A DNA stretch of 64,000 bases from positions 1,123-65,122 of the forward strand of contig CAVSWN010000012.1 of NCBI GenBank assembly GCA_963731545.1, written 5' to 3'. Shown here in pieces: positions 44,078 through 56,909 of this stretch (its first letter is position 1; every line of letters begins with the position of its first letter). The DNA is from an uncultured Acidobacteriota bacterium. GTDB taxonomy: Bacteria; Acidobacteriota; Vicinamibacteria; Vicinamibacterales; CAVVIG01. Under the pieces are notes generated by a model. It made no database searches. It saw nothing but the letters and a program-made list of their open reading frames with translations, and had not been told where the DNA came from. Made by a program: the position numbers and the translations under genes.

Positions 44078-44407
44078 CTAGCCGGATTGCATGACGCGCT
44101 GCACGGCGCCCATGAAGCGTTCCCAGTCCGCCTGCTCACGGGCGAGCTCCGCGCGCCCGGCGCGGGTGAGCCGGTAGTACTTCGACCGGCGATTGTTGTC
44201 GGACGCGGCCCACTCGGAGTCGATCAGCCCGCGCCGCTCCAGCCGATGCAGCGCCGGATACAGCGAGCCCTGGTTCACCTGCAGGACGTCCTTCGAGATC
44301 TGCATGATGCGCTGCGCGATGCCCCAGCCGTGGAGCGGCTGCAGCGCCACCGCCTTCAGAATCAGCATGTCGAGGGTCCCCTGCCGCAGATCGGTGCCGT
44401 CGTGCAC
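44078..44407 (-). CDS. padR: PadR family transcriptional regulator, acidobacterial type
   Basis: QGTLDMLIL, LHGWGI, GSLYPALHRLE and YYRLTRAG. Confidence 0.93.
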   Translation of the reverse strand: MHDGTDLRQGTLDMLILKAVALQPLHGWGIAQRIMQISKDVLQVNQGSLYPALHRLERRGLIDSEWAASDNNRRSKYYRLTRAGRAELAREQADWERFMGAVQRVMQSG

Positions 44408-44412
44408 GGTTG

Positions 44413-44469
44413 CTCCTGTCGAAGATTGAGGGATGAGGCTACTGCGGATTCTTGTCGATGGTCAAGAGG
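44413..44469 (-). promoter_or_regulatory. Putative sigma70 promoter and duplicated operator-like boxes for padR
   Basis: Minus strand TTGACC (44460-44465), 18 bp spacer, TAGCCT (44436-44441). Two similar boxes CTCCTGTCGAAGATTGAGGG and TTCTTGTCGATGGTCAAGAGG. Confidence 0.5.
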
Positions 44470-45264
44470 TGACGGAGGGAACGGTAACGGAGGCGACGGA
44501 GACAACGGTATTACACAGAGAAACGAAGGAACGGAGAATTGAACAGAGAAGACAAAATAATGTCTTCTCCGTTCAAACCTCTGTTCCTTCGTTCCTCTGT
44601 GTAATTACCGTTCCCTCCGTCCGCTCCGTTACCTCGGCGCGGGGGTTGACCAACCTCCTCACACCATCCATCAGCCTCGGCACATTGAAGTTGATCAACA
44701 GTCCAACCGGACAGCGCGTCAAATGCAGGTACGTCAGGAGCTGGGCCTCGAATACCGGCAGCACCGTGGCTACGGATTTCACTTCGACGACAACCGAGTC
44801 TTCGACGATGAGATCGAGCCGATATGAGGCGTCCAGGGCGATGCCCTTGTAGACGACCGGGATCGGATGCTGCGTCACGAATTTCAACTTGCGCGCACCC
44901 AGCTCAAAGCGCAGACACGGCAGATATGTCGATTCAAGGAGCCCGGGTCCGAGCACGCGATGAACTTCGATCGCGGCGCCGAGAATTCCATGAGTGAGAT
45001 CGTTGAAGGCCGAAAGGTCGATGTGCATGCGCCGGCGTCGTGCAAGGAGCAAGCCGCGAGAAAATCCCAGCTTTCTTTAGATCCGGGTCGCAAAAGAGCG
45101 CAGTTTCTGCGATTGCTAGCGAGGCCTTGATGCGAGTTTTTCAATCGAAGGAACCTAGACAGAAAAAGAGAATGAGGTCTTCTCCGTTCAAACCTCCGTT
45201 CCTTCGTTCCTCCTTGTGATACCGTTCCCTCCGTCCCCTCCGTTTCCGTTTCCTCCGTCTCCTC
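44466..45264. mobile_element. Candidate GxxExxY element bounded by 88-bp imperfect terminal inverted repeats
   Basis: 44466-44553 aligns without gaps to the reverse complement of 45177-45264 (13 mismatches by hand count). A third copy lies at 44562-44635. Confidence 0.65.
44573..45028 (-). CDS. GxxExxY protein (PD-(D/E)XK nuclease-like)
   Basis: LGPGLLESTY signature, RLDLIVE, VEVKSV, AQLLTYL and GLLINF. Confidence 0.92.
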   Translation of the reverse strand: MHIDLSAFNDLTHGILGAAIEVHRVLGPGLLESTYLPCLRFELGARKLKFVTQHPIPVVYKGIALDASYRLDLIVEDSVVVEVKSVATVLPVFEAQLLTYLHLTRCPVGLLINFNVPRLMDGVRRLVNPRAEVTERTEGTVITQRNEGTEV

Positions 45265-45294
45265 CGTGCGCGCTATAATACCTACACTGCAGGC

Positions 45295-45618
45295 ATGATT
45301 CGCCTCGGCGCCTTCGAACACCTCCTCCTCCTCGCCCTCATCCGCCTGGGCGACGACACCTATGGCGTGCCGATCCGCGACGAGATCGAGGCGCGGACGG
45401 GCCGGCTCGTCTCGCCCGGCGCGATCTACACCGCGCTCGATCGCCTCGAGCGCCGCGGCCTCGTCCGCTCCCAGCTCGGGGACCCGACACCCGCGCGCGG
45501 CGGCAAGCGCAAGCGCTGCTATCGGTTGACGACGAAAGGCAGCGCGGCGCTGCGGGATGCGCAGAACGCGATGACCCACATGACGCACGGCATCAAGCCG
45601 AAGCTGCAGACGCAATGA
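45295..45618 (+). CDS. padR: PadR family transcriptional regulator
   Basis: LGAFEHLLLLAL, YGVPI, GAIYTALDRLE..G and RGGKRKR; TATAAT at 45274-45279 upstream. Confidence 0.9.
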   Translation: MIRLGAFEHLLLLALIRLGDDTYGVPIRDEIEARTGRLVSPGAIYTALDRLERRGLVRSQLGDPTPARGGKRKRCYRLTTKGSAALRDAQNAMTHMTHGIKPKLQTQ

Positions 45619-48312
45619 CGCGCCTGCGCGCGGAAGCGTCAGCGAAGGCGCGCCACCGCGCCTCCCAGGGCGTCTACTCCGCCTGCTGCTCCCGCCGGAG
45701 GTTCGCGAAGTCATCGCCGGCGATCTCGAGGAAACCTGGGCGCAGCATCCCTCGCGCAGCCGGTATTGGCGGATGACCATCGCCTCGCTGGCCGCCTGGT
45801 GGCGGCATCGCCTGCGCGGCGAGCACGACCGCTCGAATACGGATCGCCGCGCGCCCAATGGAGACGGCCTCATGCAGCAGCTTCTGCAAGACCTCGCGTA
45901 CGGACTCCGGCTGATGCGCCGCGCACCCGCGTTCACGGCGGCTATTGTGCTGACGCTGGCCGTCGGCATCGGCGCCAACGCGGCCACGTTCAGCATCGTG
46001 GACATCCTCGCGCTGACACCGCTCACCTACAAAGACCCCGAGCGTGTCGCCTTCGTCTTCGGGTGGAATCTTGAACGTCAGCAGCGGCGCTTCAACCTGC
46101 CGCTCGCCGATGCGCTCGATATCGGCAGGGACACCCGATCGCTGGCCATGGTCGCTGGCTATCAGTACTGGAGCGCGAATCTGACCGGCGCCGCCGATCC
46201 CGAGCGTGTGCAGGCGTACCGCGTGACGGCCAACACATTCGCGCTGCTCGGCGTCGAGGCGGAACATGGCCGCACGATTGCCGCGGCCGACGGCCTCCCC
46301 GCCGCCCCGGACGTTGTCGTCCTCAGCCATGGCCTGTGGCAGCGGCGGTTCGGCGGATCGCCGGCGAGCGTGGGCGCAGACGGTCACGCTCGACGGGCGC
46401 GCGCACACCATCGTCGGCGTGATGCCGCGCCGGTTCGAGTTCCCCGTGTTCAACTTCAAAGGCGAAGCCTGGACGCCGTTCAAGATCGACGAAGCGGCGG
46501 GCATCACGCGCGAGTCGTCGCCGTCGGTCGTGGCGATCGCTCGGCTGCGGCCCGACGCCAGCTACCGCACGGCGCAAGCGGAGCTCGACACCGTGATGCG
46601 GCGGCTGGAAACGGACTACCCGCGCAGCAATCGCGGTCTGGGCGCGCGGATCCTCGAGATGCGCCGGCTCGGCGACGAGTACGGCACGGGATCGATCTCG
46701 ATCGTCCTGCTGTTCGCGGTCGGCTTCGTGCTGCTGCTCGCGTGCGCCAACGTCGCCAACCTGCTCCTGTCGCGGGCGGTCTCGCGCGAACGGGAAATCG
46801 GCGTTCGCGCCGCCATCGGCGCCGGCCGCGGCCGCCTGGTCAGACAACTGCTCACCGAGAGCGCGCTCCTCTCGGCCGCGGGGTCGATTGCGGGGCTCGC
46901 GGTCGCGGCGATCGTGCTGCAGTGGATCCGCGCCTCGCTGCCGGAGCTGCTGCTGGTCTCGCAACCGAACGTGCTCGACCTGGGCGTCGACCGCCGCACG
47001 CTCGTCTACACCGCCGGATTGGCCACGATGAGCGCACTGCTGTTCGGCGGATTACCGGCGCTGCGCACCGCCAGGATCGATCTGCTCACGTCATTGAAGG
47101 CCGGCAGTCACGGCACCGCGTCGCCGCGTCACCAACGCGCTCGCTCGGCGTTGATGGTCGCAGAGGTGGCGATATCGGTCGTGCTCCTCGTCGGCGCCGG
47201 GCTGCTCGTTCGCGGCGCCGGACGCCTACGGCACGTGGACACAGGTTTCAATCCGGACTCGGTTCTGACGATGACGATCGCGTTGCCCGAGTATCGATAC
47301 GGCGACGCCGATGCGCGGCGTACGTTCTTCACGTCGGCGCTGAGCAACGTGCAGCATATTCCAGGCGTGCGCGCCGCCGGGTTCGTCAACGTCCTGCCGC
47401 TCAGTACCTACGACGGGGGCACGCGCTACACGCTGTCCGGCCGCGGCCGTCGAGGCAGGGCGTGAACCCACGGCCGCCTTCCGCATCGTCACGGCGGACT
47501 ACTTCAACGCTCTCGAAATCCCCGTGCGCGCCGGTCGCGGCTTCGATTCGCGAGACGCGGCAACGGCGCAGCCGGTCGCGATCGTGAACCAGACATTCGT
47601 GCGCCGCGTGTTCGGCGGCGCCGATCCCATCGGCCAGCAGTTCCGTCTTGGTCGTGTGACATCCACCAGTCCGATGCGGACGATCGTCGGCGTCGTCGGC
47701 GACGTGCTCCACTCCGAGCTGACCGGCCGGCCCGAGCCGGAGATCTACGTGCCCTTCGCGCAGGCTCCGGCGTCGACGATGTTCCTCGCCGCGCGGACGG
47801 CCGGCGATCCCGACAGGTTTGTAGACGCTGTCCGCGGGTCGCTGGCGAAGGTCGACCCAGGACAGCCGGTCTATCACGTGAAGTCGATGAAATCGCTGGT
47901 GGACGCGGCGATGCTGCCCAACACAACGGCGACGGCGATCATGACGCTGTTCGCGATGCTCGCTCTCGTGCTCGCCAGCGTGGGGATCTACGGCGTCACG
48001 TCGTACGCCGTCACCCAACAGACGCGGGAATTCGGCGTCCGGCTCGCGCTCGGCGCGACGCCGCTCGACGTGCTGGGGATCGTGATCCGCCGCGGGCTGA
48101 CGCTGATCGCGATCGGTATGGTCATCGGGAGCGTGTTGGCCATCGGCGCCGGGCAGGCGCTCGCAGCGTTGCTGCCGAGCGTGCGCGCAGCGGACGCGCT
48201 GCCGTACCTGGCCGTGGCCGCGATCCTCTTCGCCGTCGGCGCGGCGGCATGCTACGTGCCCGCCCGCCGCGCCATGCGGCTTGATCCGGTGGAGATCCTG
48301 AGGGCGGACTAG
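45615..48312 (+). CDS. ADOP-type ABC transporter permease; frameshifted
   Basis: IAGDLEE N-terminus, [41 protein letters not shown] and LRAD end; ATGA overlap with padR. Confidence 0.9.
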
Positions 48313-56606: not shown

Positions 56607-56907
56607 GGGCGACGGAGGTTACGGAGGAACGGTATTCACACGGAGGAACGGAGCAACGGAGACGCAACGGAGAAGACAGCGTGACGCTACTGGTTCGACG
56701 GGCGTCGCGAAGCGACGCGCGCGGGGAAATGAAACGGCGGAAACGAACACCGCTAATCGCGCAGGTGCTCGTTTTCGCCGTTTCATTTCTCCCCGCTACT
56801 CGGCCGGCCATGCCGGCCGACCCGTCGAACCGGAGTCTTCTCCGTTCGTCCTCCGTTCCTCCGTTTCTCTGTGTGAATACCGTGCACTCCGTCATCTCCG
56901 TTATCTC
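56607..56907. mobile_element. Non-coding MITE/REPIN-like element with ACGGAG-unit inverted arms and a multi-hairpin core
   Basis: Arms 56607-56677 and 56835-56907 match the GxxExxY-flanking repeats; nested internal stems; GATCA on both sides (56602-56606, 56908-56912). Confidence 0.7.
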
Positions 56908-56909
56908 GA

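What the first reader, a model, noticed from the sequence alone, without database searches (positions are those of the whole stretch)
44466..45264. GxxExxY nuclease-like gene bracketed by 88-bp inverted repeats: candidate new class of autonomous repeat-mobilising element
Seen: 44466-44553 and 45177-45264 are ungapped inverted copies (75/88 identical by hand count). They are built of ACGGAG-like units with a central ACGGTA(T)T/CACA..GAG block and an inner end GAAC(G/A)GAGAAGAC. The only gene between them is a GxxExxY protein with an intact D...ExK core. Established: GxxExxY is a PD-(D/E)XK-fold family of unknown function, and RAYT transposases are flanked by the REPs they disseminate. Inference: the same architecture with a different nuclease, a GxxExxY-driven repeat system, supported by a gene-less relative 11 kb away. 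No TSD is evident here.
Basis: partly seen in the sequence, partly recalled or inferred. Interest (0 to 1): 0.85.

Follow-up and report, generated by a model that had tools for sequence, protein, structure and literature searches.

The report
Nuclease gene inside its own repeats
A small nuclease gene of unknown function sits between inverted arrays of a short repeated DNA word, gene-less copies of such arrays are scattered through the genome and differ between close relatives, and this layout is found in many phyla, so it looks like an undescribed repeat-and-enzyme partnership resembling the known REP/RAYT systems.

Summary
44466-44553 and 45177-45264 are 88-nt inverted copies, 85% complementary (score 111; the maximum over 400 random genome positions is 38). 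They enclose one intact GxxExxY (TIGR04256/PF13366) PD-(D/E)XK gene.

The gene therefore lies between two direct copies of a palindromic element.

This is a family-wide rule. Flanking inverted arrays beat the 95% null in 87 of 100 loci within the phylum and in 63 of 74 loci across about 10 phyla. Each arm is typically exactly three 8-9-nt units (ttCAC-CACnGAG), and 68 of 71 have the same polarity. Unit type follows protein lineage rather than host genome.

Gene-less hairpins of these arm types are abundant and differ between same-genus genomes. They track gene presence: median 41 versus 1 arms per genome across 301 genomes. The genome's two RAYT genes carry other REPs.

Catalysis is not shown. 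Four genomes keep many arms but have no such gene. Four-helix-bundle and toxin-antitoxin genes are bracketed in the same style.

Best reading, at about 0.5: a REPIN/RAYT-like partnership driven by a different enzyme.

The parts
44466..44553 (+). Left outer arm (A). ACGGAG-type units, purine-rich strand on top.
   Evidence: I1: 88 nt, 85% complementary to 45177-45264.
44554..44560 (.). Tip loop of the left hairpin.
   Evidence: I2; fold.
44561..44640 (+). Inner arm (A'1). It complements A, and the two together form a ~150-nt hairpin. It is also a direct repeat of the right arm. The 3' tail of the ORF runs into it.
   Evidence: I2, I3, I4; D1, D2 spacing 614-615; -64.1 kcal/mol as DNA, z -12.4.
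44573..45028 (-). GxxExxY / PDDEXK_3 gene. The ATG is at 45028; the ORF listing starts it at the TTG at 45052. The family domain spans 44651-44998 and the stop is at 44573-44575.
   Evidence: TIGR04256 138.5 bits; PF13366 132.6 bits; invariant G19, E22, Y25, D62, E72, K74; AF2 pLDDT 92; Cas4/RecB-like fold; weak, E 0.012.
45029..45142 (-). 5' region of the gene. No sigma-70 consensus was found.
   Evidence: 0 promoter-like sites.
45143..45172 (+). Degenerate remnant of an inner copy of arm A, 73% identical to 44521-44550.
   Evidence: D3.
45177..45264 (+). Right outer arm (A'2), the inverted copy of A.
   Evidence: I1.
56612..56678 (+). Left arm of the gene-less relative.
56694..56829 (+). Structured ~136-nt core carried by the gene-less relative. 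A closing stem encloses three hairpins, one with a GCGAAGC loop motif.
   Evidence: 10 copies, 46 pairs, 94.3% paired, 26 pairs with compensatory change, 0 of 500 shuffles as high; no Rfam family.
56835..56908 (+). Right arm of the gene-less relative.

Best explanation
The locus belongs to a widespread, undescribed partnership between GxxExxY PD-(D/E)XK nucleases and palindromic repeats built from a lineage-specific 8-9-nt word.

Each gene is embedded between inverted arrays of its cognate word, typically three units per arm (outer ttCAC, then CACnGAG x3). The same arrays occur without the gene as tens to hundreds of hairpin-forming elements. Some are bare and some carry a structured ~140-nt core. 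These elements are gained, lost and replaced between close relatives.

Inferred mechanism: the protein recognises the unit arrays in a fixed orientation at the DNA level. Its nuclease activity then promotes spread, replacement or maintenance of the gene-less copies in trans, as RAYT does for REPINs. The gene itself stays low-copy and is often vertically inherited.

Shown: the architecture, the specificity, the abundance correlation and the insertion polymorphism.
Inferred: binding, cleavage and causality.
For: 1. Bracketing is the rule.
- 20 of 21 testable full-length loci in 31 relatives beat all 30 shuffles (L011 dropped for a short flank).
- 49 of 59 phylum loci exceed the 95% level of a 400-position null, and 35 of 59 exceed its maximum (L064 dropped).
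- 63 of 74 cross-phylum loci exceed the 95% level (6 dropped for short flanks).

2. The arms have a defined anatomy.
- 200 of 342 arms have >=3 spaced units, and 190 of those 200 have exactly 3.
- The period is 8 (215 cases) or 9 (142 cases).
- The outer dinucleotide AC is present at 90%.
- Polarity is the same in 68 of 71.

3. Unit type follows protein lineage, not genome.
- 9 changes on the tree against a shuffle mean of 31.2 and minimum of 24 (0 of 500 shuffles as low).
- Pairs at >=60% identity share the unit type in 89-100% of cases. Pairs below 40% share it in 8-11%, including paralogues within one genome.

4. This genome holds cognate gene-less copies.
- 3 copies carry this locus's arm type.
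- About 45 bare CACGAAR hairpins sit beside one CACGAAG-armed frameshifted GxxExxY.
- CACAGAG arms with a core sit beside a CACAGAG-armed pseudogene that also carries a core.

5. The elements are mobile.
- Two elements inside a conserved operon are absent from, or replaced in, same-genus and same-family genomes.
- G001 has a hairpin where G000 has a 7-nt spacer.
- Gene-bearing elements occupy different sites in G000 and G001.

6. Arm abundance tracks the gene.
- 106 gene-positive genomes have a median of 41 arms; 195 negatives have a median of 1.
- >=10 arms are found in 79 of 106 positives against 20 of 195 negatives.
- Of 21 taxonomic families containing both classes, the positives are higher in 17, lower in 2 and tied in 2.
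- CACGAAR arms number 270 in G001, 113 in G000 and 47 in G005, against <=11 in the 28 other relatives.

7. There is no sense-strand wobble bias in the arm pairing: 132 G:T against 143 A:C over 128 loci, p 0.55. This points to DNA-level rather than mRNA-level constraint.

8. The D...ExK catalytic residues are invariant.

9. The two RAYT genes of the genome are flanked by other REPs.
Against: - No biochemical or expression evidence exists.
- Of the 5 most arm-rich gene-negative genomes, 4 (G193, G102, G054, G305; 53-120 arms; two are 100% complete) have no TIGR04256 match even at E<=1e-3. The fifth, G134, has only fragments.
- 16 of 106 gene-positive genomes have fewer than 5 arms.
- Four-helix-bundle genes, which have no nuclease fold, are bracketed in the same style (23 of 29 loci above the 95% null). 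So are MazEF-like pairs and a Phd/PIN-like pair. The bracket is therefore not specific to a nuclease.
- Paralogues are old, and one lineage sits at accA/recJ in 7 genomes including this one. The gene is not itself proliferating.
- In this 55%-complete genome, the only CACGAA-armed gene found is frameshifted, yet about 45 such hairpins persist.
- The null for inverted-repeat scores came from this GC-rich genome only.
- Genomes in the tallies are related, so the p-values overstate.
Confidence: 0.5

Rival explanations
1. Cargo model. The inverted tandem-unit arrays are the ends of a general small-cassette system moved by some other machinery, such as a host recombination or replication-slippage process or an unidentified enzyme. 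GxxExxY is only one of several selfish or defensive passengers, alongside four-helix-bundle proteins and toxin-antitoxin pairs.
For: - The same bracketing surrounds TIGR02436 four-helix-bundle genes (23 of 29 loci above the 95% null; G000 examples).
- A MazEF-like pair lies between GTTCGTC hairpins, and a TA cassette sits next to GTTCGNG arrays in G001.
- Many hairpin families in G000 have no gene found.
- 4 genomes have 53-120 CAC-type arms and no GxxExxY gene.
- Elements nest inside each other.
Against: - Each protein family keeps its own class of unit. CAC..AG-type units flank GxxExxY in 71 of 87 IR-positive loci, and none was seen among the best arms printed for the 29 four-helix-bundle loci.
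- The CAC..AG word is conserved across about 10 phyla while the proteins have diverged to about 50% identity. That is not expected for neutral passengers.
- Among the 99 genomes with >=10 arms, 79 carry the gene.
Confidence: 0.22
2. RNA-level, IVS-like model. The arms exist to form a long stem in transcripts, as in 23S rRNA intervening sequences. RNase III then excises or insulates the insert, making it harmless inside operons. The unit structure is incidental.
For: - Four-helix-bundle proteins are the ORF type found inside 23S rRNA IVSs. Those are bordered by inverted repeats forming a 28-bp stem cut by RNase III (PMC4990558, passages read).
- Gene-less elements lie between genes of a conserved operon and so must be transcribed.
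- The core shows strong compensatory covariation.
Against: - There is no excess of G:U-compatible over A:C mismatches on the gene's sense strand (132 against 143).
- Polarity is fixed (68 of 71), the unit number is fixed at three (190 of 200) and the word is conserved across phyla. A stem alone requires none of these.
- No rRNA lies at this locus or at 20 four-helix-bundle loci.
Confidence: 0.1
3. Resident-function model. GxxExxY is a domesticated DNA-binding or nuclease protein, for example acting in defence, repair or nucleoid organisation. Its dispersed arrays are its chromosomal binding sites, and the gene's own flanks serve autoregulation. Turnover of the hairpins would then be a by-product.
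For: - One lineage has stayed at the accA/recJ site across 7 genomes in 6 genera.
- Copy number is low and paralogues are old.
- The catalytic residues are conserved.
- Arm abundance correlates with gene presence.
Against: - Some copies are pseudogenised while their hairpins persist.
- Element types are replaced quickly at one site between genomes that are 95% identical.
- Nested insertions look like selfish dynamics.
Confidence: 0.13

Closest known systems
REPIN-RAYT systems (REP doublets plus a single-copy REP-associated tyrosine transposase)
   Same: - The enzyme gene is flanked by its cognate palindromic repeats.
- Tens to hundreds of dispersed gene-less hairpin copies occur.
- The enzyme gene is low-copy and often vertically inherited.
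- Each paralogue has its own repeat family.
- No target duplication was seen.
The abstracts listed (10.1101/2022.05.22.493013; PMC3337134) state that REPINs are non-autonomous elements replicated by single-copy RAYTs and are mostly vertically inherited. This genome holds two classical examples.
   Different: - The enzyme has a ~125-aa PD-(D/E)XK fold, not an HUH Y1 transposase fold.
- The arms are three tandem 8-9-nt units rather than a single REP hairpin.
- The arms can carry a structured core.
- Activity has not been demonstrated.
23S rRNA intervening sequences carrying an S23p / four-helix-bundle ORF
   Same: A small ORF sits in the loop of a long stem made by terminal inverted repeats. The element is regarded as selfish, horizontally acquired and then vertically kept (PMC4990558, abstract and passages). 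The same four-helix-bundle family is array-bracketed in this genome.
   Different: - The element here is not in rRNA.
- The ORF belongs to a different family.
- The arms are made of tandem units with a conserved word.
- There is no sense-strand wobble bias.
MITEs with parent TIR transposons
   Same: Terminal inverted repeats occur with both gene-bearing and gene-less versions that share ends. There is insertion polymorphism and nesting.
   Different: - There is no known transposase family and no target-site duplication was seen.
- The gene-bearing copies do not multiply.
Cyanobacterial STRR (short tandemly repeated repetitive heptamers). This is recalled from memory and was not retrieved: one search listed only papers that mention the term.
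   Same: Tandem 7-nt words are dispersed in intergenic DNA.
   Different: I know of no reported link to an enzyme gene or to an inverted three-unit architecture. This comparison was not tested here.

Membership tests
GxxExxY protein (TIGR04256) / PDDEXK_3 (PF13366) | Profile score above the curated cut-off | tested here: met
   138.5 bits against a cut-off of 35; 132.6 bits against 22.
GxxExxY protein (TIGR04256) / PDDEXK_3 (PF13366) | GxxExxY motif and D...ExK catalytic core | tested here: met
   G19, E22, Y25, D62, E72 and K74 are invariant in 17 sequences.
GxxExxY protein (TIGR04256) / PDDEXK_3 (PF13366) | PD-(D/E)XK fold | tested here: met
   The AF2 model has pLDDT 92.1. The best PDB folds are Cas4 SSO0001, the AdnAB nuclease domain and lambda exonuclease, all weak (E 0.012-0.03, TM about 0.5). 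No sequence relative is in the PDB.
REPIN-RAYT system | The enzyme is an HUH Y1 (IS200-like) transposase | tested here: not met
   The gene is PD-(D/E)XK. The genome's PF01797 genes lie elsewhere with other REPs.
REPIN-RAYT system | The enzyme gene is flanked by its cognate repeat, and dispersed gene-less palindromic copies exist | tested here: met
REPIN-RAYT system | Repeats are present only with the enzyme; the gene is single-copy and vertically inherited | tested here: inconclusive
   The correlation is strong, but 4 arm-rich genomes lack the gene. One lineage is syntenic in 7 genomes including this one, while others differ in site between congeners.
REPIN-RAYT system | The enzyme mobilises the repeats | not testable with these tools
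   This needs biochemistry or genetics.
TIR transposon / MITE | Terminal inverted repeats with target-site duplication and a recognised transposase | tested here: not met
   The inverted repeats are present. No duplication was seen at 44466/45264 or at the polymorphic sites (inspection only). The protein matches no transposase family.
23S rRNA intervening sequence | Inserted in a 23S rRNA helix and excised from the RNA by RNase III | tested here: not met
   No Rfam family, including rRNA, matches anywhere in the window. Processing cannot be tested here. No RNA-type wobble bias was found.

The most novel reading that the evidence does not exclude
GxxExxY nucleases, and in parallel the four-helix-bundle '23S IVS' proteins, define a pan-prokaryotic class of array-bracketed mini-elements. 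Each protein lineage reads its own 8-9-nt word, arranged as three units per arm. It drives the spread and turnover of hundreds of cognate hairpins by a DNA mechanism unrelated to HUH, DDE or serine/tyrosine recombinases. The rRNA intervening sequences would then be special cases of this class that landed in rRNA.
Probability: 0.3. Interest if true: 0.92.

Novelty: new variant of a known kind. Interest (0 to 1): 0.8.

Why it matters
GxxExxY/PDDEXK_3 is a large protein family found in bacteria, archaea and viruses. Its function is listed as unknown (PMC3424549, passage read). My full-text searches found 3, 1 and 3 papers naming the family or its accessions, and none concerns function or flanking repeats.

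The family can now be given a concrete, testable substrate: a three-unit ttCAC-CACnGAG array whose word can be read off next to every gene. If the protein acts on these arrays, three things follow:
- REPIN/RAYT-type intragenomic replicators would have arisen at least twice, with unrelated enzymes.
- A major class of intergenic hairpins in Acidobacteriota and other phyla would be explained.
- The origin of rRNA intervening sequences might be explained too.

The word-specific small nucleases could also be useful as programmable-by-choice DNA binders. One culturable carrier, Geothrix fermentans DSM 14018 (locus L221), makes experiments feasible.

Tried and rejected
- Chance or low-complexity artefact: rejected by shuffles and by a 400-position genomic null.
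- Known RNA family: no Rfam hit at gathering threshold in the window. Only hairpin-type noise appeared at E<=10 on the gene-less copy. Twenty four-helix-bundle loci gave 0 hits.
- Link to RAYT: rejected.
- Sequence relatives in the PDB: none. The best hit had E 0.29 and was unrelated.
- Promoter scan: 0 sigma-70-like sites at 44350-45350, which is uninformative for this phylum.
- Test of whether bare hairpins avoid coding DNA: uninformative in this GC-rich genome. Open frames >=600 nt span 70 of 98 hairpins and 272 of 294 random segments.
- Recent duplicates that would mark the ends of a mobile unit: none among 25 paralogous loci in 5 genomes.
- Expression: no RNA holder listed.
- Read laying on 4 metagenome runs (contigs only). 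One contig covers PadR, the arm and the gene at about 95% identity. Joints at 44536->45194 with 30 other letters look like gene-less hairpin relatives in other organisms. The sides are only about 50 nt, so I draw nothing from this.
- Homodimer prediction (2 copies, alignment A1): 'no answer', score 0.01. This is evidence neither way.
- Clean empty-site/TSD reconstruction. The filled and empty alleles come from different species whose spacers have diverged, so exact insertion points could not be fixed.
- The G001 deletion of 44470-48167 has one breakpoint within about 4 nt of the arm edge. This is a single anecdote.
- Supplementary files of papers were not consulted.
- The curated description text of TIGR04256/TIGR02436 could not be seen. 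It might already mention flanking repeats.

Overlaps and caveats on the counts:
- At least L175 = L004, L202 = L036 and L221 = L047 are the same places fetched twice, so the cross-phylum set is not fully independent of the earlier sets. L202, L221 and L198 were left out. L175 was not.
- The tallies include unpublished genomes: G076 (gene-positive, 31 arms), G053 (4 arms) and G178 (1 arm). Removing them does not change any conclusion, and no sequence from them is shown.
Full report
**1. The observation**

The window is G000:C12:1123-65122, from a metagenome-assembled genome of 4.41 Mb in 37 contigs, 55% complete.

The repeat finder gives arms 44466-44553 and 45177-45264: 88 nt, 85% complementary. 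With my local-alignment scoring the pair scores 111. Shuffled flanks reached at most 22. Four hundred random positions of the same genome gave mean 21.6, 99th percentile 34 and maximum 38.

Between the arms lies one ORF on the minus strand (44573..45028, or 45052 from a TTG). It matches TIGR04256 'GxxExxY' at 138.5 bits and PF13366 PDDEXK_3 at 132.6 bits. G19, E22, Y25, D62, E72 and K74 are invariant among 17 relatives.

An AlphaFold model (pLDDT 92.1) resembles Cas4, the AdnAB nuclease domain and lambda exonuclease only weakly (best E 0.012, TM 0.52). No PDB chain is related by sequence.

The flanks are two divergent acidobacterial-type PadR genes with their ADOP-like permease genes. The closest named relatives are Vicinamibacterales/Acidobacteriota MAGs.

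**2.

- The left arm pairs with 44561-44633 into a ~150-nt hairpin (-64.1 kcal/mol as DNA, z -12.4).
- That inner arm and the right arm are direct repeats with 614-615-nt spacing.
- A decayed copy of the missing partner arm lies at 45143-45172.

So the gene lies between two direct copies of a palindromic element.

The closest homologue (66% amino-acid identity; L004, same genus) shows the same plan in full. It reads [arm-core-decayed arm'] gene [arm-core-arm'], with a 202-nt direct repeat at 92% identity.

The gene-less relative at 56612-56908 is arm-core-arm'.

**3. The rule across genomes**

TIGR04256 genes occur in 16 of 31 relatives. At E<=1e-20 they occur in 106 of 301 genomes sampled from the phylum.

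Flanking inverted repeats exceed chance at:

| Set | Result |
|---|---|
| Testable full-length loci in relatives | 20 of 21 beat all 30 shuffles |
| Phylum loci, one per genome | 49 of 59 above the 95% null; 35 of 59 above its maximum |
| All within-phylum loci together | 87 of 100 above the 95% null |
| Loci from about ten phyla and one Methanosarcinales archaeon | 63 of 74 above the 95% null; 49 of 74 above its maximum |

The arms are not arbitrary stems:
- 200 of 342 arms hold at least three regularly spaced units matching C[AG]CnnA[GTA].
- 190 of those 200 hold exactly three.
- The period is 8 (215 cases) or 9 (142 cases).
- The outer end reads A/T-rich, then T61 T61 C45 A90 C90, then C100 A72 C100 n G72 A100 G85.

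The purine-rich strand is the 5' arm in 68 of 71 loci.

The last three letters of the unit (GAG, AAG, GAT, AAA, AAT) change 9 times on the protein tree. The shuffle mean is 31.2 and the minimum 24. Pairs of proteins at >=60% identity share the type in 89-100% of cases. Pairs below 40% share it in 8-11%. This holds both between genomes and between paralogues of one genome.

**4. Gene-less copies and their dynamics**

In G000 I found 121 inverted pairs of short tandem arrays within 2.5 kb of each other, of which 98 have loops <=100 nt. They fall into word families:
- CACGAAR: 51 pairs, about 45 of them bare.
- TGCAGRAT: 14.
- GGCWGGAAR: 12.
- AATCGGGTAAT: 5.
- Several smaller families.

The cargo-bearing members are:
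- GxxExxY copies: this locus; C8, intact; C9, frameshifted, with CACGAAG arms; and C37, a pseudogene with CACAGAG arms plus a core.
- Four-helix-bundle genes (C13, C18, and a frameshifted one on C16).
- A MazEF-like pair.
- A ~140-nt core in seven or more elements.

The core's closing stem and three hairpins are supported by 26 of 46 pairs with compensatory change. Pairing is 94.3%, 0 of 500 shuffles reach this, and slid controls give <=8.

Evidence of mobility:
- In a conserved operon (L097), element 1 is present in G000 and G001. G002 has only a 10-nt spacer there, and G007, G003 and G004 have short spacers.
- At the element 2 site, G000 has CACAGAG arms plus a core. G001 has a bare (CGCAAAG)x3 hairpin, although its flanks are 95-96% identical. 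G002 has a bare (CGCAGAG)x3 hairpin, G003 has nested arrays, and G007 and G004 have nothing.
- G001 has a ~100-nt ATTGCAGG hairpin where G000 has 7 nt.

Gene-bearing elements also differ between congeners:
- G001 lacks 44470-48167, with the breakpoint at the arm edge.
- G000 lacks the L004 element at the orthologous C33 site.
- At the C9 site the two genomes hold alleles that blastn cannot align, with different arm subtypes, inside flanks that are 90-93% identical.

By contrast, the C8 lineage sits between accA and recJ in 7 genomes, including G000. Paralogues within five genomes share at most 73% DNA identity.

**5. Does arm abundance depend on the gene?**

I counted three consecutive CRCNRAK units per genome and compared the counts with gene presence. 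The results are:
- 106 positive genomes have a median of 41 arms; 195 negatives have a median of 1.
- The reversed-pattern control gives medians of 1 and 0.
- >=10 arms occur in 79 of 106 positives against 20 of 195 negatives.
- Within the 21 taxonomic families holding both classes, the positives are higher in 17, lower in 2 and tied in 2.

CACGAAR arms number 270 in G001 (which has an intact GCCACGAAA-armed gene, L029), 113 in G000, 47 in G005, 8 in G002 (no gene) and <=11 elsewhere. The control count is 0 everywhere.

Against dependence:
- G193, G102, G054 and G305 carry 53-120 arms and have no match even at E<=1e-3. G134 has only fragments.
- 16 positive genomes have fewer than 5 arms.
- The genomes are related and the null is crude, so I treat this as strong correlation and not proof.

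**6. RNA or DNA?**

If the arms were kept as a stem in the gene's mRNA, mismatches should favour G:U on the sense strand. Over 128 loci I counted 132 G:T-type and 143 A:C-type mismatches (p 0.55). Add the fixed polarity, the fixed unit number and a word conserved across phyla. Together these point to oriented, sequence-specific recognition of DNA rather than a mere RNA stem.

No RNA data were available.

**7. Known systems**

The genome has two Y1 transposase (RAYT-like) genes. Each is flanked by its own, different REP family: GGGACGGAGGT, with 59 copies, and a GGTCCGGC...GCCGGACG hairpin. The tandem-unit hairpins are therefore not RAYT's. The same 'enzyme gene inside its repeats' logic is nevertheless visible in this very genome.

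REPIN-RAYT systems are the closest analogue. The abstracts listed describe them as non-autonomous REPINs replicated by single-copy, mostly vertically inherited RAYTs. Their defining HUH enzyme is absent here.

23S rRNA IVSs share the 'ORF in a stem' design and the four-helix-bundle ORF (PMC4990558, passages read). This locus is not in rRNA, and neither are 20 four-helix-bundle loci.

Four-helix-bundle genes are bracketed by other, more varied words in 23 of 29 loci. No CAC..AG-type word was seen among the best arms printed for those loci. This shows two things: the bracket style is general, and each protein family keeps its own word class.

**8. Verdict**

The best-supported reading (about 0.5) is a REPIN/RAYT-like partnership in which a PD-(D/E)XK nuclease recognises three-unit arrays of a lineage-specific word.

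The main rival (about 0.22) is that the arrays are the ends of a general cassette system and the nuclease is a passenger.

In the full-text library searched, I found no paper on the function of the family or on these flanks. That library lacks most subscription journals and the family curators' notes.

Noticed in passing
window 56694-56829; also G000 loci L097:1490-1630, L097:3762-3897, L098:1126-1262, L099:1006-1143, L102:1338-1478, L100:867-1001, L116:465-593; G001 L004, L106: A ~140-nt structured core is carried between arms. A closing stem encloses a GCGAAGC-loop mini-hairpin, a long variable hairpin and a GGCCGGC hairpin. Covariation is strong (26 of 46 pairs compensatory, 0 of 500 shuffles as high). 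No Rfam family matches. It could be an RNA or a single-stranded-DNA structure.
   Followed up: partly
G000:C13:91609-92343 and G000:C18:69760-70341 (L103, L104); 29 loci L118-L147 in relatives: Four-helix-bundle genes (TIGR02436, the '23S rRNA IVS protein' family) are bracketed by inverted tandem arrays of other 7-8-nt words. 23 of 29 loci exceed the 95% null. Bare hairpins of the same words occur in the genome, for example about 13 of the TGCAGRAT type.
   Followed up: partly
G000:C16:47869-48640 (L111); G001:C5 about 850073-850959 (within L170/L171): Toxin-antitoxin cassettes sit between or next to GTTCGNN tandem-array hairpins: a MazEF-like pair in G000 and a Phd/PIN-like pair in G001. The G001 cassette is absent from the orthologous G000 site.
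   Followed up: partly
G000:C30:176012-176940 (L257) and G000:C34:21990-22900 (L256): Two classical RAYT-like Y1 transposase genes are each flanked by their own REP family. One family is GGGACGGAGGT arrays with 59 copies in the genome. The other is a GGTCCGGCTAAAGCCGGACGCCAC hairpin.
   Followed up: partly
window 44470-48167 compared with G001:C1:2441265-2441279: The same-genus genome G001 lacks the element, the right-hand PadR gene and most of the ADOP-like permease gene. Only the last ~150 nt of the permease remain. The left breakpoint lies within about 4 nt of the outer edge of the left arm.
   Followed up: partly
window 45773-48312: The ADOP-like permease gene to the right of the element reads in three different frames (ORFs 45773.., 46266..47465, 47524..48312). 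This suggests frameshifts or assembly errors.
   Followed up: no
L097 about 1400-1760 (G000:C19:72893-73230): Nested elements. A CACAGAG-armed element with a core sits in the loop of an outer CACGGAG-armed hairpin. This suggests insertion into the tips of existing hairpins.
   Followed up: no
L210 (Methanosarcinales archaeon MAG): A GxxExxY gene in an archaeal MAG is flanked by CGCAAAG arrays (score 42). The layout is therefore not confined to bacteria, provided the binning is correct.
   Followed up: no
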